Source: a virus
Taxonomy: Duplodnaviria; Heunggongvirae; Uroviricota; Caudoviricetes
DNA length: 31,066 bases
Reading direction: 5' to 3' (one strand)
IMG/VR virus record: IMGVR_UViG_2690316153_000021
The notes below the pieces were generated by a model that saw nothing but the letters and a program-made list of their open reading frames with translations, was not told the DNA's origin and did not search any database. A program made the translations under genes and the position numbers. Numbering within the stretch: position 1 is the stretch's first letter; each line of letters opens with the position of its first letter. Of the stretch, positions 3,899 to 24,403 are shown piece by piece.

Positions 3899-4170
3899 GC
3901 ATTCGTATTGAAATTGGCGAACGTTATGTGGTTACCAGTGACAGCTTCCAGTTTATTCTCCACGAGAAAAAGAGAGCGGAAAGCGGTAAAAACGCCGGTC
4001 AGGAGTGGCTGGCGGTGGTTGGTTATTACCCGAAATTAAGCCAGCTCGTTTCCGGCCTGATGCATCACGATATTCTGACCGGAAGCGCAAAGTCTTTTGC
4101 TGATTTAAACGCGCAGGTTGAGCAACTCAGCAAGCGTTGTTCTGAGGCTTTTGGCTCATATGGCCGTTAA
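3895..4170 (+). CDS. Hypothetical early protein (P2 orf83 position)
   Basis: 91-aa ORF, start overlaps previous stop (ATGA); immediately upstream of and overlapping A. Confidence 0.5.
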   Translation: MSIRIEIGERYVVTSDSFQFILHEKKRAESGKNAGQEWLAVVGYYPKLSQLVSGLMHHDILTGSAKSFADLNAQVEQLSKRCSEAFGSYGR

Positions 4171-6445
4171 AGCCTCCGGGCGTTTTGTCCCTCCGTCAGC
4201 ATTTGCCGCAGGCACCGGTAAGGCGTTTACTGGTGCTTATGCATGGAACGCGCCACGCGAGGCTGTCGGGCGCGAAAGACCCCTTACACGTGACGAGATG
4301 CGTCAGGTGCAAGGTGTTTTATCCACGATTAACCGCCTGCCTTACTTTTTGCGCTCGCTGTTTACTTCACGCTATGACTACATCCGGCGCAATAAAAGTC
4401 CGGTACACGGGTTTTATTTCCTCACATCCACTTTTCAGCGTCGTTTATGGCCGCGCATTGAGCGCGTGAATCAGCGCCATGAAATGAACACCGACGCGTC
4501 GTTGCTGTTTCTGGCAGAGCGTGACCACTATGCGCGCCTGCCTGGAATGAATGACAAGGAGCTGAAAAAGTTTGCCGCCCGTATCTCATCGCAGCTTTTC
4601 ATGATGTATGAGGAACTCTGCGATGCATGGGTTGATGCGCATGGTGAAAAAGAATCGCTGTTTACGGATGAGGCGCAGGCACATCTGTATGGTCATGTTG
4701 CTGGCGCTGCACGTGCTTTCAATATTTCCCCGCTCTACTGGAAAAAATACCGTAAAGGACAGATGACCACGAGGCAGGCATATTCTGCCATTGCCCGCCT
4801 GTTTAACGATGAGTGGTGGATTAGTCAGCTTAAAGGCCAGCGTATGCGCTGGCATGAAGCGTTACTGATAGCTGTCGGGGAGGTCAATAAAGACCGTTCT
4901 CCTTATGCCAGTAAACACGCCATTCGTGATGTGCGTGCGCGCCGCCAGGCAAATCTGGAATTTCTTAAATCGTGTGACCTTGAAAACAGGGAAACCGGCG
5001 AGCGCATCGACCTTATCAGTAAGGTGATGGGCAGTATTTCTAATCCTGAAATTCGCCGGATGGAGCTGATGAACACCATTGCCGGTATTGAGCGTTACGC
5101 CGCTGCAGAGGGTGATGTGGGGATGTTTATCACGCTGACCGCGCCGTCAAAGTATCACCCGACACGTCAGGTAGGAAAAGGCGAAAGTAAAACCGTGCAG
5201 CTTAATCACGGCTGGAACGATGAGGCATTTAATCCAAAGGATGCGCAGCGTTATCTCTGCCGTATCTGGAGCCTGATGCGCACGGCATTCAAGGATAATG
5301 ATTTACAGGTCTACGGTTTGCGTGTCGTCGAGCCACACCACGACGGAACGCCGCACTGGCATATGATGCTTTTTTGTAATTCACGCCAGCGTAACCAGAT
5401 TATCGAAATCATGCGTCGCTATGCGCTCAAAGAGGATGGCGACGAAAGAGGAGCCGCGCGAAACCGTTTTCAGGCAAAACACCTTAACCGGGGCGGTGCT
5501 GCGGGATATATCGCGAAATACATTTCAAAAAACATCGACGGCTATGCACTGGATGGTCAGCTCGATAACGACACCGGCAGGCCGCTGAAAGACACTGCAG
5601 CGGCTGTTACCGCATGGGCGTCAACGTGGCGCATCCCGCAATTTAAAACGGTTGGCCTGCCGACAATGGGGGCTTACCGTGAACTACGCAAATTGCCGCG
5701 CGGCGTCAGCATTGCTGATGAGTTTGACGAGCGCGTCGAGGCTGCACGCGCCGCCGCAGACAGTGGTGATTTTGCGTTGTATATCAGCGCGCAGGGTGGG
5801 GCAAATGTCCCGCGCGATTGTCAGACTGTCAGGGTCGCCCGTAGCCCGTCGGATGACGTTAACGAGTACGAGGAAGAAGTCGAGAGAGTGGTCGGCATTT
5901 ACGCGCCGCATCTCGGCGCGCGTCATATTCATATCACCAGAACGACGGACTGGCGCATTGTTCCGAAAGTTCCGGTCGTTGAGCCTTTGACTTTAAAAAG
6001 CGGCATCGCCGCGCCTCGGAGTCCTGTCAATAACTGTGGAAAGCTCACCGGTGGTGATGCTTCGTTACCGGCTCCCACACCTTCTGAGCACGCCGCAGCA
6101 GTGCTTAATCTGGTTGATGACGGTGTTATCGAATGGAATGACCCGGAGGTCGTGAGGGCGCTCAGAAGCGCATTAAAACACGGTCTGAGAAGACCAAACC
6201 GTCAGCAAAGAAACGGAAACCCGTTAAAACCGCATGAAATAGCGCCATCGGCCAGACTGACCCGGTCAGAACGATTGCAAATTACCCGTATCCGCGTTGA
6301 CCTCGCTCAGAACGGTATCAGGCCGCAACGATGGGAGCTTGAGGCGCTGGTGCGTGGCGCGACCGTAAATTATGACGGGAAAAAATTCACGTATCCGGTC
6401 GCTGATGAGTGGCCGGGATTCTCAACAGTAATGGAGTGGACATGA
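4160..6445 (+). CDS. A: Rolling-circle replication initiator endonuclease A
   Basis: ORF track 4118..6445; ATG at 4160 (MAVKASGRFV...) gives 761 aa, the P2 gpA length. Contains the HUH-type metal-binding motif (HWHMMLF) and catalytic tyrosine motif (YIAKYISK) of rolling-circle initiators. Confidence 0.9.
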   Translation: MAVKASGRFVPPSAFAAGTGKAFTGAYAWNAPREAVGRERPLTRDEMRQVQGVLSTINRLPYFLRSLFTSRYDYIRRNKSPVHGFYFLTSTFQRRLWPRIERVNQRHEMNTDASLLFLAERDHYARLPGMNDKELKKFAARISSQLFMMYEELCDAWVDAHGEKESLFTDEAQAHLYGHVAGAARAFNISPLYWKKYRKGQMTTRQAYSAIARLFNDEWWISQLKGQRMRWHEALLIAVGEVNKDRSPYASKHAIRDVRARRQANLEFLKSCDLENRETGERIDLISKVMGSISNPEIRRMELMNTIAGIERYAAAEGDVGMFITLTAPSKYHPTRQVGKGESKTVQLNHGWNDEAFNPKDAQRYLCRIWSLMRTAFKDNDLQVYGLRVVEPHHDGTPHWHMMLFCNSRQRNQIIEIMRRYALKEDGDERGAARNRFQAKHLNRGGAAGYIAKYISKNIDGYALDGQLDNDTGRPLKDTAAAVTAWASTWRIPQFKTVGLPTMGAYRELRKLPRGVSIADEFDERVEAARAAADSGDFALYISAQGGANVPRDCQTVRVARSPSDDVNEYEEEVERVVGIYAPHLGARHIHITRTTDWRIVPKVPVVEPLTLKSGIAAPRSPVNNCGKLTGGDASLPAPTPSEHAAAVLNLVDDGVIEWNDPEVVRALRSALKHGLRRPNRQQRNGNPLKPHEIAPSARLTRSERLQITRIRVDLAQNGIRPQRWELEALVRGATVNYDGKKFTYPVADEWPGFSTVMEWT

Positions 6446-6897
6446 TGGCAAAAATTCACGAGGTAAAGCTGCACGCAAAATATTTCGACCTTGTACTGGA
6501 AGGAAAAAAACGCGCAGAGTTTCGGAAAAATGACCGTAATTATGAGCGCGGGGACACGTTGATTTTGCATGAATGGGTGCAGGGTGTGTTTACGGGGCGA
6601 AAGGTTGAAGCCCGGATAACAGATGTTACTGACCTGTCAGACTGGCTGGAAGATTATGTCTTGCTAAGTATTGAGCTGCTTAATACGGGCGCATATAAGA
6701 TTGTGAACTGGAAAGAACTTAGTGAACGTGGTCTGGTATTCAGAATTAATCATGAAATTATGCATCAGCTCGGCCTTGCTGTTATGTATGAACCAGAGAC
6801 GGGGCTGTCTGGCGGGGCAGTGGTTGCTGCGGATGGGATATGGAACTATTCAGATGAACAGGTGGAGCGTGCAAAGCAAAACGGGTGGCTTGGATAA
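6445..6897 (+). CDS. ASCH/DUF3850-like domain protein with extra C-terminal region
   Basis: Start ATG overlaps the A stop (TGATG). N-terminus (HEVKLHAKYFDLVLEGKKRAEFRKNDRNYERGDTLILHEW) matches my recollection of the DUF3850 / ASCH (PUA-like) signature; C-terminal about 70 aa unassigned. Confidence 0.5.
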   Translation: MAKIHEVKLHAKYFDLVLEGKKRAEFRKNDRNYERGDTLILHEWVQGVFTGRKVEARITDVTDLSDWLEDYVLLSIELLNTGAYKIVNWKELSERGLVFRINHEIMHQLGLAVMYEPETGLSGGAVVAADGIWNYSDEQVERAKQNGWLG

Positions 6898-7103
6898 TGC
6901 ACAGAATACCAGGCGAGATACCGCACCATAAAACTAAAAATATCAAGCTGATGGCTATTGTTCAGCGTTTACAGCGGATTATGGTCAACGAAAATCTGAC
7001 GCCCGATGAGCTGGTCGGGTGTGCCGAAATAGTTCGGGATAATTACGGGCGGCTTAACTATATCGGTCAGTCCAGAGTTGCGCCACCACCACGAAGACGA
7101 TAG
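6897..7103 (+). CDS. Small hypothetical protein (68 aa)
   Basis: ATG overlaps the stop of the preceding gene (TAATG), suggesting translational coupling; otherwise no support. Confidence 0.3.
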   Translation: MHRIPGEIPHHKTKNIKLMAIVQRLQRIMVNENLTPDELVGCAEIVRDNYGRLNYIGQSRVAPPPRRR

Positions 7104-7284
7104 AGAACGCCGCCAGTCGTGAAACTTGTTTTCAGGGCTGGCGGGGTTGAACAACGAGCGTAGCGAGGCGTTAGTTGACAGACATATTTTTACTGCGTTG
7201 GTGCCGGTTTTTGACGGTTGAAAGGAGTTAGGTTGGAGAGCTAACAACTTACAAATATTCAAAAGTAAGCATCCTGTTGCTAAC

Positions 7285-8058
7285 ATGAGGTCGATTTTTT
7301 ATGTGGATGATGCAAAAAGGATAGCTATGGATACTATAATCGCTTTTCTATCACTCGCTTTTTTCGTTGCTTTCTTCATCGGGTTAATCAAGCCATCACT
7401 GGTGCGAATGCCAAACCGCAAACGTGCAAGTGCGGTTTATCTCGGAGGAGGTTTTGTATTGAGCATAATTGGTTCAATACTCTATCCAACAGAAAAAAGC
7501 CAGCCAGTTGATAAAACTGAAACATCAACCGTTGCAGAACATAAAGTCCAAAAAACATTCGAATATGGTGAAAAAACACTCAAGGAATATCGGAACGAGT
7601 CAAAGAAAACACGACACGATATTGTGAATAGTTACATTGATTTTAAGGAAGTTCCAGCCACCGCGTCAGATGCGTTTTATGCCTGCATGAGTGAATATAC
7701 ATTTACCAAAGATGATGAGTTGAAACTCGGTGATGTTCTTGGGTGGTGCTTTAATGATTATGAAAATGACCCGAATTCACTAAACAATAAAATCAATCTT
7801 GATACATTTCAGAGTAATTTTAGTGGTTGGGATGGTTCTTATCGTCCATTGGAAAAACTAATTAAAGATAATATGAACGATGATTCATCTTATAAACATG
7901 TATCAACGGTATATCATCTGGTTTTGAATAAAGACCCGCATGCCATTGTGAAAACCACGTTTCGCGGAACTAATGCTTATGGCGGAGTGGTGAAACAGAC
8001 GATTGCTGCGCGTGTTGATATAAAAACTGGTAAGGTGATATCAATCATAGATAATTGA
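7285..8058 (+). CDS. Accessory (moron) membrane protein: two N-terminal hydrophobic helices plus about 190-aa soluble domain, unknown family
   Basis: 257-aa ORF (an alternative start at ATG 7327 has an AAGGA SD). Hydrophobic segments TIIAFLSLAFFVAFFIGLI and VYLGGGFVLSIIGSILY. Visibly AT-rich relative to the flanking phage genes. Occupies the P2 tin/old slot between A and cos. Followed by a hairpin plus T-tract. Confidence 0.6.
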   Translation: MRSIFYVDDAKRIAMDTIIAFLSLAFFVAFFIGLIKPSLVRMPNRKRASAVYLGGGFVLSIIGSILYPTEKSQPVDKTETSTVAEHKVQKTFEYGEKTLKEYRNESKKTRHDIVNSYIDFKEVPATASDAFYACMSEYTFTKDDELKLGDVLGWCFNDYENDPNSLNNKINLDTFQSNFSGWDGSYRPLEKLIKDNMNDDSSYKHVSTVYHLVLNKDPHAIVKTTFRGTNAYGGVVKQTIAARVDIKTGKVISIIDN

Positions 8059-8067
8059 TATCTTACA

Positions 8068-8107
8068 ATGCCGACGCTGAATATTTAATTGGGTGTCGGC
8101 ATTTTTT
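8068..8107 (+). terminator. Rho-independent terminator-like hairpin after the first cargo gene
   Basis: atgccgac (8068-8075) pairs with gtcggcat (8095-8102), about 19-nt loop, followed by TTTTTT (8102-8107). Confidence 0.55.
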
Positions 8108-8167
8108 GACTATTAGAGCGGCAGAACCGAGATTTGTTGCGTATGAGATTAGCACTGCGAGAATGTT

Positions 8168-8950
8168 ATGAAAATTATAAACCAACTTAAGAAGTTTGAT
8201 AAGAAAAGAACGCCAGATGATGGCCGTATTAGTTTGTTATATGAAAACGCGATTAAGTATGATATGTACTCTGTATATATTAAAGATAAAAATGATACAG
8301 AATACCTCTTTGACTGTTTGGTTGATGGGAAGATAAAGGCTTTTAAATGGGATGATGAGGAGCGTAGATTTCATATAAGTTCATGCTTGGATATTTCTGA
8401 GGTTACGCCTGATTCTTTTTTTGGTGTTTACTACTACCGTGCGCATGAGTTGCGATTTAACTCTTTAAATGATTTAACATTTTTAAGGGAGTTGTTCTTT
8501 AGAGTAAAGTCTAATTATGAAAATATAAAGTTTAGTCGTGAAAAATATATTTATCGACAGCAAAAAAAAGAAATAACTGATGTGATGTTTGTTCTCTCAA
8601 CGATTATAAGAATGTATCGTGAATGGGATGCTCAAACTGTGTTTAGTGAGTTTTCAATAATGACCGAAGTCGCTGGTAGTTTATGGGTATACCATGACGA
8701 TAAAAACAGGATGCGTAAAGAGCTTCGTTTATGCCTGAATTCTCTTGTTCAGAATGGAGATCTTGTTGAAACAAGTAGTGGATTTAGGCCAACAGGAAAG
8801 GCACTGAACACAATATCTACATTCAATAAAGATGAGGTGCGGTACAGAGAGAATTTGAGTACTCAGAAGAAAATGTTTTGGGCTACTTTTTTCGCAGCAG
8901 TCGGCGGCGTAGGAAGTATGATTGCAGCTATAATAGGGCTTCTAAAATGA
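8168..8950 (+). CDS. Accessory (moron) protein with single C-terminal transmembrane anchor, unknown family
   Basis: 260-aa ORF, strongly AT-rich; C-terminal hydrophobic stretch (MFWATFFAAVGGVGSMIAAIIGLLK) at the extreme end, i.e. tail-anchored topology; preceded by a terminator, so probably its own transcription unit. In the P2 tin/old slot. Confidence 0.6.
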   Translation: MKIINQLKKFDKKRTPDDGRISLLYENAIKYDMYSVYIKDKNDTEYLFDCLVDGKIKAFKWDDEERRFHISSCLDISEVTPDSFFGVYYYRAHELRFNSLNDLTFLRELFFRVKSNYENIKFSREKYIYRQQKKEITDVMFVLSTIIRMYREWDAQTVFSEFSIMTEVAGSLWVYHDDKNRMRKELRLCLNSLVQNGDLVETSSGFRPTGKALNTISTFNKDEVRYRENLSTQKKMFWATFFAAVGGVGSMIAAIIGLLK

Positions 8951-9110
8951 GCCAACAAAATCGTATGATGAAGTATTGAGTGAAAAGCATTCTTTATATG
9001 CATTATTTTGCATGCAACATATGCTATACATTCTAGCTATGAATTGTCAGACGTGGCAGTACTTCTGTATGGTAATGCAACTGCATTAAAACCGCCCCAT
9101 GAAGCGGGCG

Positions 9111-9129
9111 GGCGAGGCGGGGAAAGCAC
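9111..9129. other. cos: cos site (19-nt cohesive end sequence GGCGAGGCGGGGAAAGCAC)
   Basis: Exact string ggcgaggcggggaaagcac at 9111-9129 matches the P2 cohesive-end sequence as I recall it, and lies in the GC-rich stretch just beyond the 3' end of portal gene Q, where cos sits in P2. Confidence 0.65.
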
Positions 9130-9298: not shown

Positions 9299-10333
9299 TC
9301 AGCCGTTGTCAGTGTCCAGTGAGTAGTTTTTAAAGCGGATGACCTCCTGACCGAGCCAGCCGTTTATCTCGCGGATCCTGTCCTGTAACGGGATAAGCTC
9401 ATTGCGGACAAAGACCTTTGCCACTTTCTCAATATCACCCAGCGACCCGACGTTCTCCGGCTTGCCCCCCATCAACTGAAAGGGGATGCGGTGCGCGTCC
9501 AGCAGGTCAGCGGCGCTGGCTTTTTTGATATTAAAAAAATCGTCCTTCGTTGCCACTTCACTGAGCGGGATAATTTTAATGCCGTCGGCTTTCCCCTGTG
9601 GGGCATAGAGAAACAGATTTTTAAAGTTATTGCGGCCTTTCGACTTAACCATGTTTTCGCGAAGCATTTCGATATCGTTGCGATCCTGCACGGCATCAGT
9701 GACGTACATGATGTATCCGGCATGTGCGCCGTTTTCGTAATACTTGCGGCGGAACAGCGTGGCCGACTCATTCAGCCAGGCAGAGTTAAGGGCGCTGAGA
9801 TATTCCGGCAGGCCGTACAGCTCCTGATTAATATCCGGCTCCAGCAGGTGAAACACGGAGCCGGGCGTGAAAGGTGTCGGCTCGTTGAAGGACGGCACCC
9901 ACCAGTAAACATCCTCCTCCACCCCACGGCGGGTATATTTTGCCGGTGAGGTTTCCAGTCTGATGACCTTACCGGTAGTGCTGTAACGCTTTTCCAGAAA
10001 CGCATTACCGAACACCAGAAAATCCAGCACAAAGCGGCTGAAATCCTGCTGAGAAAGCCACGGATGCGGGATAAATGTCGAGGCCAGAATATTGCGTTTG
10101 ACGTAAATTGGTGAGCTGTGATGCACGGCAGCACGCAGGCTTTTTGCCAGACCGGTAAAGCTGACCGGTGGCTCATACCATCTGCCGTTACTGATGCACT
10201 CGACGTAATCCAGAATGTCACGGCGGTCGAGTACCGGCACCGGCTCACCAAAGGTGAATGCTTCCATTTTCGGGGCGCTGGCAGTCATTGTTTTCACCGC
10301 TGGCTGCGGTGTTTTCCCTTTTTTCTTACTCAT
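9299..10333 (-). CDS. Q: Portal protein
   Basis: 344 aa, exactly the P2 gpQ length; position and orientation (leftward, next to cos and P) as in P2. Confidence 0.9.
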   Translation of the reverse strand: MSKKKGKTPQPAVKTMTASAPKMEAFTFGEPVPVLDRRDILDYVECISNGRWYEPPVSFTGLAKSLRAAVHHSSPIYVKRNILASTFIPHPWLSQQDFSRFVLDFLVFGNAFLEKRYSTTGKVIRLETSPAKYTRRGVEEDVYWWVPSFNEPTPFTPGSVFHLLEPDINQELYGLPEYLSALNSAWLNESATLFRRKYYENGAHAGYIMYVTDAVQDRNDIEMLRENMVKSKGRNNFKNLFLYAPQGKADGIKIIPLSEVATKDDFFNIKKASAADLLDAHRIPFQLMGGKPENVGSLGDIEKVAKVFVRNELIPLQDRIREINGWLGQEVIRFKNYSLDTDNG

Positions 10334-20438: not shown

Positions 20439-21042
20439 TTCGCGCCTGCTGCCGACCGGCTCATCACCGCTTGAAGTCGCCGCCGCAAGAGCCTGTGCGG
20501 AAATTGAAAAAACGCCGGTCAGTATTCGTGAGCTGTGGAACCCGGATACCTGTCCGGCAAATCTGCTGCCGTGGCTGGCGTGGTCATTTTCGGTTGACCG
20601 CTGGGATGATAAGTGGCCGGAAGCGACAAAACGCGCTGTTATCCGCGATGCGTATTTCATTCACTGCCATAAGGGCACTATTGGTGCGATTCGCCGTGTG
20701 GTGGAGCCGCTCGGCTATCTGATTGAGGTGAGGGAGTGGTGGCAGCTCAACGAGGAGCCGGGGACGTTCCGCATCGTTGTTGGCGTGCTTGAGCAGGGTA
20801 TTACCGAGGAAATGTATCAGGAGCTGGAGCGTCTCGTTGCTGATGCAAAACCTGCAAGCCGCCATCTGACGGGACTGGCTATCAGTTTAAGTACAACCGG
20901 CAACATTTTTGTCGGTGCGGGATGCTATCACGGCGACGCCCTGACGGTTTATCCCTACACCCCGGAGGCCATTATTGTCGGAGGGGATTATTTCCCGGCC
21001 TCGGCCATTCATTTAATTGATAACCTGAGAGTAAACGCATGA
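20431..21042 (+). CDS. I: Baseplate wedge protein I
   Basis: 203 aa (P2 gpI is 176 aa); start overlaps J stop, stop overlaps H start. Confidence 0.82.
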   Translation: MSDSRLLPTGSSPLEVAAARACAEIEKTPVSIRELWNPDTCPANLLPWLAWSFSVDRWDDKWPEATKRAVIRDAYFIHCHKGTIGAIRRVVEPLGYLIEVREWWQLNEEPGTFRIVVGVLEQGITEEMYQELERLVADAKPASRHLTGLAISLSTTGNIFVGAGCYHGDALTVYPYTPEAIIVGGDYFPASAIHLIDNLRVNA

Positions 21043-22367
21043 CAGTGAAATACTACGCCATTCTGACTAATCAGGGCGCAGCACGGCTGGCTAACGCGAC
21101 GATGCTCGGCAGTAAGCTGAATCTGACGCAAATGGCCGTTGGTGATGCGAATGGTGTCTTGCCGACACCAGACCCGGCACAGATAAAACTGATTAACCAG
21201 AAACGCATCGCGCCGCTGAATCTTCTGAGTGTTGACCCGAACAACCAGAGTCAGATTATTGCGGAGCAAATCATCCCTGAGAACGAGGGCGGATTCTGGA
21301 TCCGTGAGATTGGGCTTTATGATGATGAAGGCGTACTCATTGCGGTGGCGAACTGCCCGGAAACGTACAAACCGCAGTTGCAGGAAGGCAGTGGTCGTAC
21401 CCAGACTATCCGCATGATTCTGGTTGTCACGAATACCGAAGCTATCACGCTGAAAATCGACCCGTCGGTGGTACTGGCGACCCGTAAATATGTGGATGAT
21501 GAAGTCCTGGAATTAAGGCTGTATGTGGATGACCAGATGAGCAAACACATTGCCGCACAGGACCCTCATACCCAGTATGCACAGAAACATAATCCGACAT
21601 TTACCGGAGAACCAAAAGCACCGACGCCTGCCGCAGGAAATAACACCACGCGGATTGCGACCACTGCGTTTGTACAGGCCGCTATTACCGCTCTGATTAA
21701 CGGTGCGCCTGACACGCTGGACACACTGAAAGAAATTGCCGCGGCCATTAACAATGACCCGAAATTCAGCACCACCATTAACAATGCGCTGGCAGGTAAA
21801 CAACCGCTGGACAATACGCTGACTCATTTGAGTGGAAAGGATGTTGCCGGTCTTCTCGCATACCTTGGTTTGGGAGAAGGCTCAGCATTACCTGTTGGGG
21901 TGCCTGTTCCATGGCCTTCAGCCACACCGCCAACAGGCTGGCTGAAATGCAACGGTGCGGCATTTTCTGCTGAAGAATACCCGGAACTGGCAAAGGCTTA
22001 TCCAACAAATAAATTACCTGATTTACGCGGTGAGTTTATTCGTGGATGGGATGATAGTCGTGGTATCGACAACGGGCGTGCGCTGCTTTCATCTCAAGGC
22101 CATTCACTCAGAGACCACTCACATAACCAGCAGATCTGGACAGGTTCAAATACAACATCGTCAACTATTGGTCAGGCCGGGAGTTATGCTCCGCTAGCAA
22201 CTGGAGGGGATGGGGGGATTGCCTATACTGACCGGGAGCCTCAAAGCCTACCTTCAGCAGTAAGAGCTGTCAGCACTCGTGGGGTTGCTTCTGACAATGC
22301 AGCGAATATTGGCACTGAAACCCGCCCGCGCAACATTGCATTTAACTACATCGTGAGGGCTGCATAA
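21039..22367 (+). CDS. H: Tail fibre protein H (constant N-terminal part fused to currently expressed variable C-terminus)
   Basis: 442 aa; N-terminus and the ...NALAGKQP... segment resemble P2 gpH; shorter than P2 H (669 aa). The crossover site lies in-frame at codons YLGLGE (21861-21878). Confidence 0.85.
   Translation: MTVKYYAILTNQGAARLANATMLGSKLNLTQMAVGDANGVLPTPDPAQIKLINQKRIAPLNLLSVDPNNQSQIIAEQIIPENEGGFWIREIGLYDDEGVLIAVANCPETYKPQLQEGSGRTQTIRMILVVTNTEAITLKIDPSVVLATRKYVDDEVLELRLYVDDQMSKHIAAQDPHTQYAQKHNPTFTGEPKAPTPAAGNNTTRIATTAFVQAAITALINGAPDTLDTLKEIAAAINNDPKFSTTINNALAGKQPLDNTLTHLSGKDVAGLLAYLGLGEGSALPVGVPVPWPSATPPTGWLKCNGAAFSAEEYPELAKAYPTNKLPDLRGEFIRGWDDSRGIDNGRALLSSQGHSLRDHSHNQQIWTGSNTTSSTIGQAGSYAPLATGGDGGIAYTDREPQSLPSAVRAVSTRGVASDNAANIGTETRPRNIAFNYIVRAA
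21853..21878. promoter_or_regulatory. gix/cix-like invertase crossover site (left), inside H
   Basis: ttctcgcatacc-TT-ggtttgggagaa: 26-bp imperfect palindrome with half-sites of the form TTnTCnnAAACC around a 2-bp core; its right 14 bp are the exact reverse complement of 23729-23742. Confidence 0.6.
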
Positions 22368-22969
22368 TGACACAGGCAAAATTAAACAGTGAATTTATTG
22401 CCACAGTAGCGGGTGATATTACCGTCTATAACTATGACAACACGACACGGGAATACATTTCATCATCAACAGAATATCTTGCCGTTGGCGTCGGTATCCC
22501 GGCATGTTCTTGTTTAGATGCACCAGTTACACATAAAGCTGGTTATGCAATCTGCCGTTCTGCAGATTTTAACTCATGGGAATATGTACCAGACCATCGC
22601 GGTGAAATCATCTATAGCACCGAAACAGGAGAATCGAAAGAAATCACAGCTCCGGGTGATTACCCTGAAAATACAACCACTATCGCCCCGTTAACGCCAT
22701 TCGATAAATGGGATGGTGAGAAATGGGTGACGGATACCGAGGCACAGCATAGCGCCGCACTAGACGCGGCAGAAGCAAAGCGCCAGTCGCTGATTGATGC
22801 TGCAATGGCTTCCATCAGTCTGATTCAGATGAAATTACGGGCCGGGCGGAAGCTGACGCAGGCAGAAACCACCCGACTTAACGCTGTGCTGGATTACATT
22901 GACGCGGTGGAGGCAACAGATACCAGCACCGCGCCTGATGTCATCTGGCCTGAACTGCCGGAGGCGTAG
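22367..22969 (+). CDS. G: Tail fibre assembly chaperone (Tfa) for the expressed fibre tip
   Basis: 200 aa; start overlaps H stop (TAATG); C-terminus (NAVLDYIDAVEATDTSTAPDVIWPELP) is the typical Tfa chaperone C-terminal motif. Confidence 0.8.
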   Translation: MTQAKLNSEFIATVAGDITVYNYDNTTREYISSSTEYLAVGVGIPACSCLDAPVTHKAGYAICRSADFNSWEYVPDHRGEIIYSTETGESKEITAPGDYPENTTTIAPLTPFDKWDGEKWVTDTEAQHSAALDAAEAKRQSLIDAAMASISLIQMKLRAGRKLTQAETTRLNAVLDYIDAVEATDTSTAPDVIWPELPEA

Positions 22970-23381
22970 GCCATTCAATATCTGGCGCACCGGAAGTATC
23001 GACCAGTTCCAGTGCGTCCAGATAATCCAGCCACAAATTATATTGCACCAGTTCCTCACCTTTCAGGCGACCAATCGCCGCTTTACCAGGCCATTGCTTA
23101 CTGTTTATGTATTCGTTGACCTGATTAATCAATTGCTGCTTTTTCAGTTCGGCTGCGGCAATTTGTTCCTCATGAGTTGGCGGTGGAATATCAATCCATG
23201 CAGGCATTCCGTCGATGACACCTCTGTATTTTCCTTCTGGTGCTTCCTTCATAAATTCGGCAGCAACAGTGTCGTCAATTTCGATTCCATCATCGGGCCA
23301 TTCGCCGGATTCCTGATAAGCGATTTTAAGCTCCACAGGGAAAAACGCATTTTTATCGGCACTGAAAATATATTTCTGCAT
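22941..23381 (-). CDS. Alternative tail fibre assembly chaperone (Tfa') inside the invertible segment
   Basis: 146 aa on the minus strand; C-terminus (NLWLDYLDALELVDTSGAPDIEWPTPP) is paralogous to the plus-strand Tfa motif; 3' ends of the two tfa genes converge and overlap by about 29 bp. Confidence 0.75.
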   Translation of the reverse strand: MQKYIFSADKNAFFPVELKIAYQESGEWPDDGIEIDDTVAAEFMKEAPEGKYRGVIDGMPAWIDIPPPTHEEQIAAAELKKQQLINQVNEYINSKQWPGKAAIGRLKGEELVQYNLWLDYLDALELVDTSGAPDIEWPTPPAVQAR

Positions 23382-23383
23382 TT

Positions 23384-23728
23384 CTACCGTCCTATCGAAA
23401 TATAACTGAATCTGTATTGCTGTGAGATATCACTGGTTGCCACACGCCACGCTGAATTACTGATATGTTCAAAATTTACAGACAAAACCTGCGGGGCAGG
23501 AATCGACGGGTCTGACTGAACGGCATCAGACATAACACTGACTGAAACCATCGGCTGATTAGGGAATGGTATAGGGAAGTGTCCACTGATAAAGCGGGTC
23601 GTGTTTCCTGCAAAAGTGCCAAACTGAACAATATATCCACCTGGTAGCCTGAACCATCCCGAACCAGAAGCGAATGCTCCCATATCCGGTATCTGATTAT
23701 CTCCTGTGCCCACATCCCTTTTCGCCGC
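23384..23728 (-). CDS. Silent alternative tail-fibre C-terminal cassette (Hv'), expressed only after inversion
   Basis: Minus-strand frame reads ...VGLGEAAKRDVGTGDNQ... through the right gix site, in the same codon phase as H reads YLGLGEGS through the left site, so inversion would create an in-frame H::Hv' fusion. ORF-track ORF 23384..23782 has its only ATG upstream of the site, so it has no plausible independent start. Confidence 0.6.
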   Translation of the reverse strand, partial: AAKRDVGTGDNQIPDMGAFASGSGWFRLPGGYIVQFGTFAGNTTRFISGHFPIPFPNQPMVSVSVMSDAVQSDPSIPAPQVLSVNFEHISNSAWRVATSDISQQYRFSYISIGR

Positions 23729-23754
23729 TTCTCCCAAACCAACGTTTATGAAAA
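23729..23754. promoter_or_regulatory. gix/cix-like invertase crossover site (right)
   Basis: ttctcccaaacc-AA-cgtttatgaaaa; left half-site identical to the reverse complement of the right half-site of the 21853-21878 site. Confidence 0.6.
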
Positions 23755-23809
23755 TGCAAAGATAACGGGCAAGTGGCATCATCTCCGGTTTTTATTCAGG
23801 GGGATGCTC

Positions 23810-24403
23810 ATGTTTATTGGCTATGTACGCGTATCAACAAATGACCAGAACACGGAATTGCAGCGTAACGCGCTGGAATGCGCGGGATGTGAGCGGATTT
23901 TTGAGGACAAAATCAGCGGCACGAAGTCCGACAGGCCGGGGCTGAAAAAACTGCTCAGGACATTATCGGAGGGGGATACACTGGTAGTCTGGAAGCTGGA
24001 CCGGCTGGGGCGTAGTATGCGGCATCTGGTCATTCTGGTTGAGGAACTGCGCGAACGTGGCATTAATTTTCGCAGCCTGACGGATGCTATTGATACCAGC
24101 ACGCCGATGGGGCGTTTTTTCTTTCATGTGATGGGTGCCCTGGCTGAAATGGAACGAGAACTCATTGTCGAGCGGACTCGGGCCGGGCTGGAAGCGGCCA
24201 GAGCCAAAGGTCGTATTGGTGGCAGACGTCCTAAACTCACCACGAGTGAGTGGGAGCAGGCCGGGCGTTTGCTGGCTGCAGGGGAGTCACGTCAACGCGT
24301 GGCACTGATTTTTGATATTGGTCTGTCCACGCTCTATAAAAAATTTCCCTCATCAGCGACAAAGAATAAATTGTGTCATCCCTTAGCCAACCGGGACAAA
24401 TAG
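23810..24403 (+). CDS. Serine DNA invertase, Gin/Pin/Cin/Hin family
   Basis: ORF track 23804..24403; N-terminus (M)FIGYVRVSTNDQNTELQRNAL... with catalytic-serine motif (VRVST), resolvase-type N-terminal domain and C-terminal HTH (GLSTLYKKF); immediately adjacent to the invertible segment. Start at 23804 or 23810. Confidence 0.9.
   Translation: MFIGYVRVSTNDQNTELQRNALECAGCERIFEDKISGTKSDRPGLKKLLRTLSEGDTLVVWKLDRLGRSMRHLVILVEELRERGINFRSLTDAIDTSTPMGRFFFHVMGALAEMERELIVERTRAGLEAARAKGRIGGRRPKLTTSEWEQAGRLLAAGESRQRVALIFDIGLSTLYKKFPSSATKNKLCHPLANRDK

What the first reader, a model, noticed from the sequence alone, without database searches (positions are those of the whole stretch)
7104..9110. Unassigned two-gene AT-rich cargo in the P2 tin/old accessory slot between A and cos
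In P2 the interval between replication gene A and cos carries tin and old, and in P2-like prophages this slot is a recognised hotspot where different anti-phage systems are swapped in. Here it holds two genes (7285-8058 and 8168-8950) that are visibly more AT-rich than every flanking phage gene and that I cannot match to Old (an ATPase/Toprim nuclease of about 590 aa), to retron, Gabija or PARIS-type ATPases, or to any other family I recognise. Both products are membrane-anchored, which is the topology expected of an abortive-infection or exclusion effector. Compositional contrast plus hotspot position plus no family match makes this the best candidate for an undescribed defence or superinfection-exclusion system in the window.
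Basis: partly seen in the sequence, partly recalled or inferred. Interest (0 to 1): 0.85.

Follow-up and report, generated by a model that had tools for sequence, protein, structure and literature searches.

The report
Two separate membrane-protein cassettes, one known
The AT-rich stretch next to the packaging site of this P2-like E. coli prophage holds two separate single-gene cassettes, not a new two-gene system: a copy of phage 186 gene orf97, recorded as blocking 186 infection when expressed from a plasmid, and an already catalogued but untested membrane-tethered winged-helix protein.

Summary
Window 7177-9069 is the most AT-rich stretch of its size in the window (36.6% GC against a median of 55%). 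It lies between replication gene A and cos (9111-9129) and encodes two membrane-anchored proteins.

- **Gene 1 (7327-8058; the 7285 start is unlikely)** is the orthologue of coliphage 186 Orf97: 76% identity, gapless over all 243 aa. The 186 reference record says its 'expression from plasmid blocks 186 infection'. The model shows two N-terminal membrane helices and a domain that I infer faces the periplasm.
- **Gene 2 (8168-8950)** is tail-anchored and has a cytoplasmic winged-helix domain. Its family has at least 637 clusters, no Pfam or PADLOC model, and occurs as a solitary gene on prophages and plasmids.
- **The two genes are not an obligate pair.** Each occurs without the other. A strong terminator separates them here. 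In 186-type phages a conserved border hairpin lies between them. Only 6 of 86 E. coli genomes with full-length gene 1 also carry gene 2.
- **Prior cataloguing.** Rousset et al. 2022 list them as separate, untested single-gene entries.

Best reading: an Orf97-type superinfection-exclusion gene plus an independent orphan cassette of unknown, possibly antiviral, function. Interest is modest, and rests mainly on the gene 2 family.

The parts
7104..7176 (+). Conserved hairpin-containing border element at the left edge of the hotspot
   Evidence: It matches P2-like and Wphi phages at 96-97% identity while the sequence to its right does not. The RNA fold is -28.8 kcal/mol, z = -4.1. The same element lies downstream of orf97 in phage 186 and in 186-type loci, and between gene 1 and gene 2 there.
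7177..7326 (+). Gene 1 leader region
   Evidence: The last 70 nt or so are homologous to the 186 tum-orf97 intergenic region, including a degenerate copy of the t95a hairpin (alignment; 186 features). AGGA at 7318-7321 is the ribosome-binding site. There is no LexA box and no consensus promoter was found.
7327..8058 (+). Gene 1: Orf97-family protein, 243 aa, with two N-terminal membrane helices and a C-terminal domain inferred to be periplasmic
8067..8108 (+). Intrinsic terminator after gene 1
   Evidence: A 12-bp GC-rich stem followed by a U-run: -21.6 kcal/mol, z = -5.3, and 0 of 200 shuffles fold as well.
8168..8950 (+). Gene 2: tail-anchored 260-aa protein with a beta-rich N-domain, long helix, winged-helix domain, long helix and C-terminal membrane helix
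9070..9129 (.). Conserved right flank and cos site (19-mer at 9111-9129)
   Evidence: The match to other P2-like phages resumes at query base 1967 or so, which is window 9070. The exact P2 cos 19-mer is present.

Best explanation
The block holds two independent accessory cassettes that sit next to each other in the cos-proximal hotspot of a P2-type prophage.

**Cassette 1: gene 1, an Orf97-family protein.**
- A hairpin of two helices (about residues 3-24 and 34-55) anchors it in the inner membrane. The basic loop between them (RMPNRKRAS) would face the cytoplasm.
- The folded C-terminal part (residues 78-243) would then face the periplasm. It has a small HdeA-like helical subdomain carrying an invariant cysteine pair, followed by a cystatin/NTF2-like sheet.
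- By orthology with 186 Orf97, it most likely makes the cell refractory to infection by P2/186-family phages.
- I infer that it acts at the envelope, after adsorption, by blocking genome delivery. This would resemble T4 Imm/Sp, HK97 gp15 or lactococcal Sie2009.
- In phage 186 the gene is co-transcribed with the antirepressor tum from a LexA-controlled promoter. Here it has been captured inside the hotspot without tum or a LexA box.

**Cassette 2: gene 2, a stand-alone tail-anchored protein.**
- Its cytoplasmic part carries a winged-helix domain. It belongs to a large unnamed family found singly on prophages and conjugative plasmids.
- Its role is unknown. My best guess is a single-gene exclusion or abortive-infection factor that binds DNA or a phage protein at the inner face of the membrane.

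**What is shown and what is inferred.**
- Shown: the orthology, the predicted folds, the hydrophobic membrane helices, the independent occurrence of the two genes, the terminator and the border element.
- Inferred: the topology, the exclusion mechanism, how either gene is expressed in this prophage, and any antiviral role for gene 2.
For: **Gene 1 identity**
- 76% identity to 186 Orf97, gapless over 243 aa. The P22H4 record also names its copy Orf97.
- The NC_001317 record notes 'expression from plasmid blocks 186 infection' and annotates the operon p95(LexA)-tum-t95a-orf97-t95b. The source paper, Brumby 1996, is cited in PMC5322425.

**Gene 1 topology and fold**
- Two invariant cysteines.

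**Independence of the two genes**
- Census of 87 non-redundant A-to-Q intervals: gene 1 is the only cargo in 11, is followed by gene 2 in 18, by a 232-aa membrane protein in about 19, and by many other genes elsewhere. Gene 2 occurs without gene 1 in 12, five of them directly after A.
- Complete E. coli genomes: gene 1 in 93 (86 full length), the gene 2 family in 16, both together in 6.
- Terminator between the genes.
- The border element lies between the genes in 12 loci that are 186-type or lack the A-gene end, and upstream of gene 1 in 21 P2-type loci. Six of the 21 have a second copy after gene 1.
- Rousset 2022 lists them as separate single-gene entries with 210 and 62 occurrences, as I read Table S5B.

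**Gene 2**
- Winged-helix fold. The C-terminal membrane helix is conserved across the 66 diverse family members examined, out of at least 637 clusters.
- Solitary copies on plasmids lie beside a restriction endonuclease, HEPN and DUF2971 proteins, and toxin-antitoxin genes.
Against: - The exclusion phenotype is known only from a database note on the 186 orthologue. I could not read the primary paper. Plasmid over-expression of a membrane protein can block infection non-specifically.
- No promoter was found for either gene, so expression in the lysogen is unproven.
- The two genes are adjacent in two divergent lineages, at 100%/100% and about 78%/60% identity. 18 of 30 gene 2 loci have gene 1 upstream. 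Some functional interplay is therefore not excluded, although the loci were selected for carrying either gene and many share descent.
- Nothing ties gene 2 to defence beyond its neighbourhood.
Confidence: 0.6

Rival explanations
1. The two genes form one obligate two-component membrane system. One protein senses infection and the other executes abortive infection or exclusion, loosely like RexA/RexB.
For: The genes are adjacent, on the same strand and in the same order in two divergent phage lineages. Both are membrane-anchored, facing opposite sides of the inner membrane. 18 of 30 gene 2 loci have gene 1 upstream.
Against: Gene 1 occurs alone 11 times and with many other partners. Gene 2 occurs alone directly after A, or after a type VI retron. 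A strong terminator separates the genes here. A hotspot border element separates them in 186-type phages, where gene 1 is a backbone gene of the SOS operon. Phage 186 itself has orf97 but no gene 2, and there orf97 alone is annotated as blocking infection. Co-occurrence in complete E. coli genomes is 6, against roughly 2-3 expected by chance.
Confidence: 0.12
2. One or both genes are not antiviral. They would instead be lysogenic-conversion or phage-physiology genes. Gene 1 could be a membrane-anchored periplasmic chaperone or envelope-stress factor, given its HdeA-like domain, or could act during prophage induction. Gene 2 could be a membrane-tethered DNA-binding regulator or a tether for replicating or packaging DNA near cos.
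For: The HdeA/HdeB-like fold. In phage 186 the gene is expressed with the induction machinery rather than in stable lysogeny. Gene 2 has a DNA-binding-type fold, is always the gene nearest cos, and some plasmid homologues sit beside partition or replication genes. Rousset 2022 found that this hotspot also carries non-defence cargo, and only 3 of 8 additional P2 systems they tested protected.
Against: The recorded phenotype of Orf97 is a block to infection. Both genes are dispensable and swapped in and out like other hotspot cargo. Their neighbours in the slot include a type VI retron and a PADLOC candidate, PDC-S64.
Confidence: 0.2
3. Gene 2 is a retron-type effector that has become separated from its reverse transcriptase. 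It would need a retron elsewhere in the genome to work.
Against: Type VI retrons are described as complete with a small protein toxin, an HTH antitoxin and the reverse transcriptase (abstracts). Gene 2 occurs far more often without any reverse transcriptase. No reverse transcriptase ORF and no Rfam RNA family were found in the block. Winged-helix matches are generic.
Confidence: 0.04

Closest known systems
Coliphage 186 Orf97 (NP_052294; phrog_3403), last gene of the LexA-controlled p95 tum-orf97 SOS operon
   Same: Gene 1 is 76% identical over the full 243 aa with no gaps and has the same start. It lies at the same genomic end, between A and cos. The last 70 nt or so of its leader are homologous to the 186 tum-orf97 spacer. 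The annotated phenotype of Orf97, a block to 186 infection when expressed from a plasmid, fits its membrane and periplasmic architecture.
   Different: This prophage has a P2-type backbone with no tum, no p95 promoter and no LexA box. The gene lies to the right of the hotspot border element rather than to its left. It is more AT-rich, 37.7% against 46.2% GC. It has its own, different terminator.
Envelope-level superinfection exclusion proteins (T4 Imm/Sp, HK97 gp15, lactococcal Sie2009)
   Same: As I recall them, these are small phage-encoded inner-membrane proteins with a domain outside the cytoplasm that block genome entry after adsorption. That is the same overall architecture and the same kind of phenotype.
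   Different: I found no sequence or fold relationship to any of them, and did not compare their sequences directly. The step blocked by Orf97 is unknown. This is an analogy from general knowledge, not a tested membership.
P2 tin/old cargo at the same hotspot
   Same: Same slot between A and cos. Both are AT-rich lysogenic-conversion-type cargo.
   Different: No sequence similarity to Tin. Pfam finds no ATPase or Toprim domains. The genes are on the opposite strand: tin and old are transcribed from the cos side towards A.
Entries 12 ('2 TM') and 68 ('1 TM') in Table S5B of Rousset et al. 2022 (PMC9122126)
   Same: These entries are near-identical to the two proteins here; both query motifs from each protein are found in them.
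   Different: They are listed there as two separate single-gene entries with no annotation. Motifs from these two proteins are not found in the table of systems tested for defence.
Winged-helix DNA-binding domains (MarR family; kleisin C-terminal domains; retron Ec86 effector N-domain)
   Different: The match is at fold level only, at 8-18% identity. None of these relatives is tail-anchored to the membrane. DNA binding is not shown.

Membership tests
Phage 186 Orf97 family (phrog_3403) | Full-length sequence homology to 186 Orf97 | tested here: met
   76% identity, 243/243 aa aligned without gaps, E 2e-148. PHROG hit at 3.5e-147.
Phage 186 Orf97 family (phrog_3403) | Location at the cos-proximal end of a P2/186-like genome, downstream of replication gene A | tested here: met
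Phage 186 Orf97 family (phrog_3403) | Membership of a LexA-controlled operon with tum | tested here: not met
   There is no tum gene in the prophage. No CTGT-N8-ACAG site lies between 6862 and 10115. This is a feature of 186-type genomes, not of the protein family.
Phage 186 Orf97 family (phrog_3403) | Blocks infection by 186-family phages when expressed | not testable with these tools
Needs plating assays.
P2 Tin / Old | Sequence similarity to Tin, or the ABC-ATPase plus Toprim domains of Old | tested here: not met
   BLASTP against P2 Tin gives E > 1 for both proteins. Pfam finds no ATPase or Toprim domain.
Known anti-phage systems in PADLOC-DB v2.0.0 | Match to any component model | tested here: not met
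   No hit better than E 0.02 for either protein. No consistent hit across 66 gene 2 relatives.
Obligate two-gene system (operon) | The two genes co-occur consistently and are co-transcribed | tested here: not met
   Each gene occurs without the other. A terminator lies between them. The border element lies between them in 186-type loci. 6 of 86 E. coli genomes with full-length gene 1 carry gene 2.
Winged-helix fold (gene 2, residues about 139-208) | Three helices plus a beta-hairpin wing, superposable on known winged-helix domains | tested here: met
HdeA/HdeB-like periplasmic chaperone fold (gene 1, residues about 85-165) | Structural superposition plus chaperone function | tested here: inconclusive
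Type VI retron | Reverse transcriptase, HTH protein, small protein and ncRNA | tested here: not met
   These components are present next to a gene 2 paralogue in L131. The block 7104-9110 here has no reverse transcriptase ORF and no Rfam RNA family.

The most novel reading that the evidence does not exclude
Gene 2 would be the first member of a new, widespread family of single-gene antiviral proteins. The family has at least 637 clusters at 50% identity and extends from Enterobacterales to Firmicutes, on prophages and conjugative plasmids. Each member is a tail-anchored inner-membrane protein whose cytoplasmic beta-domain and winged helix would sense incoming phage DNA or a phage protein. It would then either block entry or permeabilise the membrane. 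In this prophage it would be paired with an Orf97 envelope block, giving two layers of exclusion on opposite faces of the inner membrane.
Probability: 0.3. Interest if true: 0.6.

Novelty: new member of a known kind. Interest (0 to 1): 0.3.

Why it matters
- **It clears a false lead.** The 'unassigned two-gene system' resolves into a gene described in 1996 plus a separate orphan cassette.
- **It leaves two modest but testable points.**
  1. Orf97, an old exclusion phenotype with no known mechanism, now has a structural model: a membrane hairpin plus a likely disulfide-bonded periplasmic domain. It has about 200 sequence clusters (at 90% identity), mostly from Enterobacterales, so its mode of action against P2/186-type phages could be studied directly.
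  2. The gene 2 family is large, has no database model, and recurs in the variable regions of mobile elements next to known defence genes. That makes it a reasonable candidate for a new single-gene defence.
- **The border hairpin adds context.** Its position relative to orf97 differs between P2-type and 186-type phages, and it sometimes flanks orf97 on both sides. This shows concretely how cassettes are moved in and out of this hotspot.

Tried and rejected
- **Family searches.** Pfam, NCBIfam and PADLOC found nothing for either protein. Neither did scans of 66 distant gene 2 relatives.
- **P2 Tin.** Explicit comparison gave no similarity.
- **Solved structures by sequence.** Profile searches against PDB sequences found nothing.
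- **Gene 1 against gene 2.** Profile-profile comparison showed they are unrelated.
- **Viral structure library.** Foldseek of gene 2 against BFVD gave nothing significant. The afdb50 library was not available.
- **Profile search with the gene 1 alignment.** It returned only the same family, 202 clusters, and the distant tail was not listed.
- **Genome-collection scan for gene 2.** It returned one locus only.
- **LexA box upstream of gene 1.** None found.
- **Rfam.** No match over the block or over the whole window.
- **Promoter scan.** No convincing sigma-70 promoter for either gene; counts were no higher than in shuffled sequence.
- **Retron-effector idea for gene 2.** Rejected as the main reading: no reverse transcriptase here, and type VI retrons are complete without it.
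- **Literature.** No paper mentions the RefSeq accessions. The 2026 NAR study of P2/P4 hotspots tested only P4 loci of unknown function. The primary Orf97 paper, Brumby 1996, is not held.

Full report
**What is there**

The window is a P2-like prophage of E. coli. It is 100% identical to strain E70 over the block and is integrated next to pflA. Downstream of replication gene A (4118-6445) come these features, in order:
- an ASCH/DUF3850 gene (6445-6897);
- a 72-aa ORF (6885-7103);
- a 73-bp conserved stretch (7104-7176);
- an AT-rich block holding two plus-strand genes;
- cos (9111-9129);
- the portal gene Q on the minus strand (9299-10333).

GC is 37.7% for gene 1 and 34.7% for gene 2, against 53-57% for A, Q and P. 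The block 7177-9069 has the lowest GC of 584 same-size windows. Conserved flanks around variable content are therefore confirmed.

**Gene 1 is phage 186 orf97**

The likely start is ATG 7327. An AGGA lies 5 nt upstream, and RefSeq, PHROG and phage 186 all use this start. The 243-aa product is 76% identical to Orf97 of coliphage 186, without a gap. The P22H4 record also names its copy Orf97.

The 186 reference record annotates orf97 as 'expression from plasmid blocks 186 infection'. It places the gene in the LexA-controlled operon p95-tum-t95a-orf97-t95b. The source, Brumby et al. 1996, is cited in PMC5322425. I could not read it.

The family has about 200 clusters at 90% identity, mostly from Enterobacterales, plus a Vibrio phage VHML relative at 45% identity.

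The AF2 model (pLDDT 82, and above 90 for residues 80-243) shows:
- two N-terminal helices (residues 2-21 and 31-52) joined by the basic loop RMPNRKRAS;
- a disordered linker;
- a compact domain.

**Gene 2 is a tail-anchored winged-helix protein of a large unnamed family**

The AF2 model (pLDDT 85) shows:
- a beta-rich N-domain (residues 30-97);
- a long helix;
- a three-helix plus hairpin unit (139-208);
- a long helix ending in the only hydrophobic segment (236-259).

Close relatives number only 30 clusters. A profile search, however, finds 637 representatives at 50% identity with E of 1e-3 or better. Nearly all of the 150 best listed are 250-300 aa. The 66 relatives I examined keep a C-terminal hydrophobic helix. 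None matches a Pfam or PADLOC family. The family reaches Firmicutes.

On plasmids the gene is solitary. It sits in variable regions beside a restriction endonuclease, HEPN and DUF2971 proteins, toxin-antitoxin genes, recombinases and transposases. The gene is absent from the isolated-phage collection.

**The two genes are separate cassettes**

I took a census of 87 non-redundant A-to-Q intervals from loci fetched with either gene.

| Arrangement | Loci |
|---|---|
| Gene 1 as the only cargo | 11 |
| Gene 1 followed by gene 2 | 18 |
| Gene 1 followed by an unrelated 232-aa membrane protein | about 19 |
| Gene 1 followed by one of a dozen other genes | the remaining gene 1 loci |
| Gene 2 without gene 1 | 12 |

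Of the 12 loci with gene 2 but not gene 1, five have gene 2 directly after A and three have it after a type VI retron.

Among 5,426 complete E. coli genomes:
- gene 1 is in 93, of which 86 are full length;
- the gene 2 family is in 16;
- both are together in 6.

About 556 genomes matched the block or its conserved flanks. Taking that as a rough count of P2-like loci, 2-3 co-occurrences are expected by chance.

In the window a strong intrinsic terminator follows gene 1 (8067-8108; -21.6 kcal/mol, z = -5.3).

The 73-bp conserved stretch at 7104-7176 is a hairpin element (z = -4.1).
- In phage 186 and 186-type loci it lies downstream of orf97. Where gene 2 is present, it lies between the two genes.
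- In P2-type backbones it lies upstream of gene 1, and in 6 loci a second copy follows gene 1.

In 186-type phages the gene upstream of orf97 carries a DinI-like domain, like Tum in the 186 record. So orf97 is a backbone gene of the SOS operon in the 186 lineage. There gene 2 is simply cargo in the next slot. In the window lineage, orf97 has itself been captured inside the slot. It kept the last 70 nt or so of its 186-type leader but lost tum, p95 and the LexA box.

Rousset et al. 2022 list the two proteins as separate single-gene entries in Table S5B: entry 12, '2 TM', 210 occurrences, and entry 68, '1 TM', 62 occurrences, as I read the columns. Motifs from the two proteins are not found in the table of systems they tested.

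**Known families considered**

Neither protein resembles P2 Tin, and Pfam finds no Old-type domains. No PADLOC, Pfam or NCBIfam model matches. The two proteins are unrelated to each other.

A gene 2 paralogue sits after a type VI retron in 10 E. coli genomes. Those retrons are described as complete without it, and there is no reverse transcriptase here.

**Mechanism and confidence**

| Claim | My estimate |
|---|---|
| Gene 1 is an Orf97 orthologue | about 0.97 |
| The two genes are independent cassettes | about 0.8 |
| Gene 1 excludes P2/186-type phages at the envelope | about 0.6-0.7 |
| Gene 2 is antiviral | about 0.3-0.4 |

The exclusion estimate for gene 1 rests on a database note plus the architecture. 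The estimate for gene 2 rests on neighbourhood only. For context, 3 of 8 additional P2-hotspot systems tested by Rousset protected, and 6 of 8 unknown P4 loci protected in the 2026 NAR study.

How either gene is expressed in this prophage is unresolved, because the scan found no convincing promoter.

**Verdict**

The block is ordinary hotspot cargo. One gene is already described, and the other is catalogued but uncharacterised. The residual interest lies in the gene 2 family and in working out how Orf97 blocks infection.

Noticed in passing
window 7104-7176; also L126 5845-5915, L029 6745-6815, L017 about 5775-5850: A conserved hairpin element of about 75 nt marks the left edge of the cos-proximal hotspot. 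It lies downstream of orf97 in 186-type phages and upstream of orf97 in P2-type phages. In 6 loci a copy sits on both sides of orf97, as if it served as the homology anchor for cassette exchange. It is absent from reference P2 and from the retron-carrying locus L131, and has no Rfam match.
   Followed up: partly
L131 2645-5039 (E. coli EH01-18-02) and 9 other complete E. coli genomes: A gene 2 paralogue (66% nucleotide identity) lies directly after a complete type VI retron in the same hotspot. The retron has a small protein, HTH_VI at 2e-31 and RT_VI at 9e-106.
   Followed up: partly
L017 6831-7529 and about 18 other loci: An unrelated 232-aa protein with an N-terminal hydrophobic segment follows orf97 about as often as gene 2 does. 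It has no Pfam or PADLOC match.
   Followed up: partly
L132 2206-3237 (Pseudomonas syringae plasmid pPMA4326A); also Aeromonas phage LPM4 and Vibrio plasmids: The last 70-80 residues of gene 1, the sheet subdomain, occur at about 50% identity at the C-terminus of a 343-aa plasmid protein. Partial matches covering only the C-terminal part of gene 1 also occur on other records. The subdomain therefore appears to be a mobile module.
   Followed up: partly
window 22941-24403: A Hin/Cin-type serine invertase gene (23804-24403) lies next to oppositely oriented ORFs (22941-23381 and 23384-23782, minus strand), downstream of the large 442-aa ORF (21039-22367). By position this looks like an invertible host-range segment; the ORFs were not scanned.
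   Followed up: no
window 6445-7103: Between A and the hotspot lie an ASCH/DUF3850 plus DUF7415 protein and a 72-aa protein (phrog_11386). Both are of unknown function and are conserved in P2-type relatives.
   Followed up: no
window 7285-7326: The ORF finder's start at 7285 adds 14 residues that have no ribosome-binding site. RefSeq, PHROG and phage 186 do not use this start. The real start is most likely 7327.
   Followed up: yes
L047 / L119 (IMGVR_UViG_2740892277_000001): In one 186-type locus, gene 2 matches only from about residue 115 onward and is split into two ORFs. It is probably a disrupted copy.
   Followed up: no
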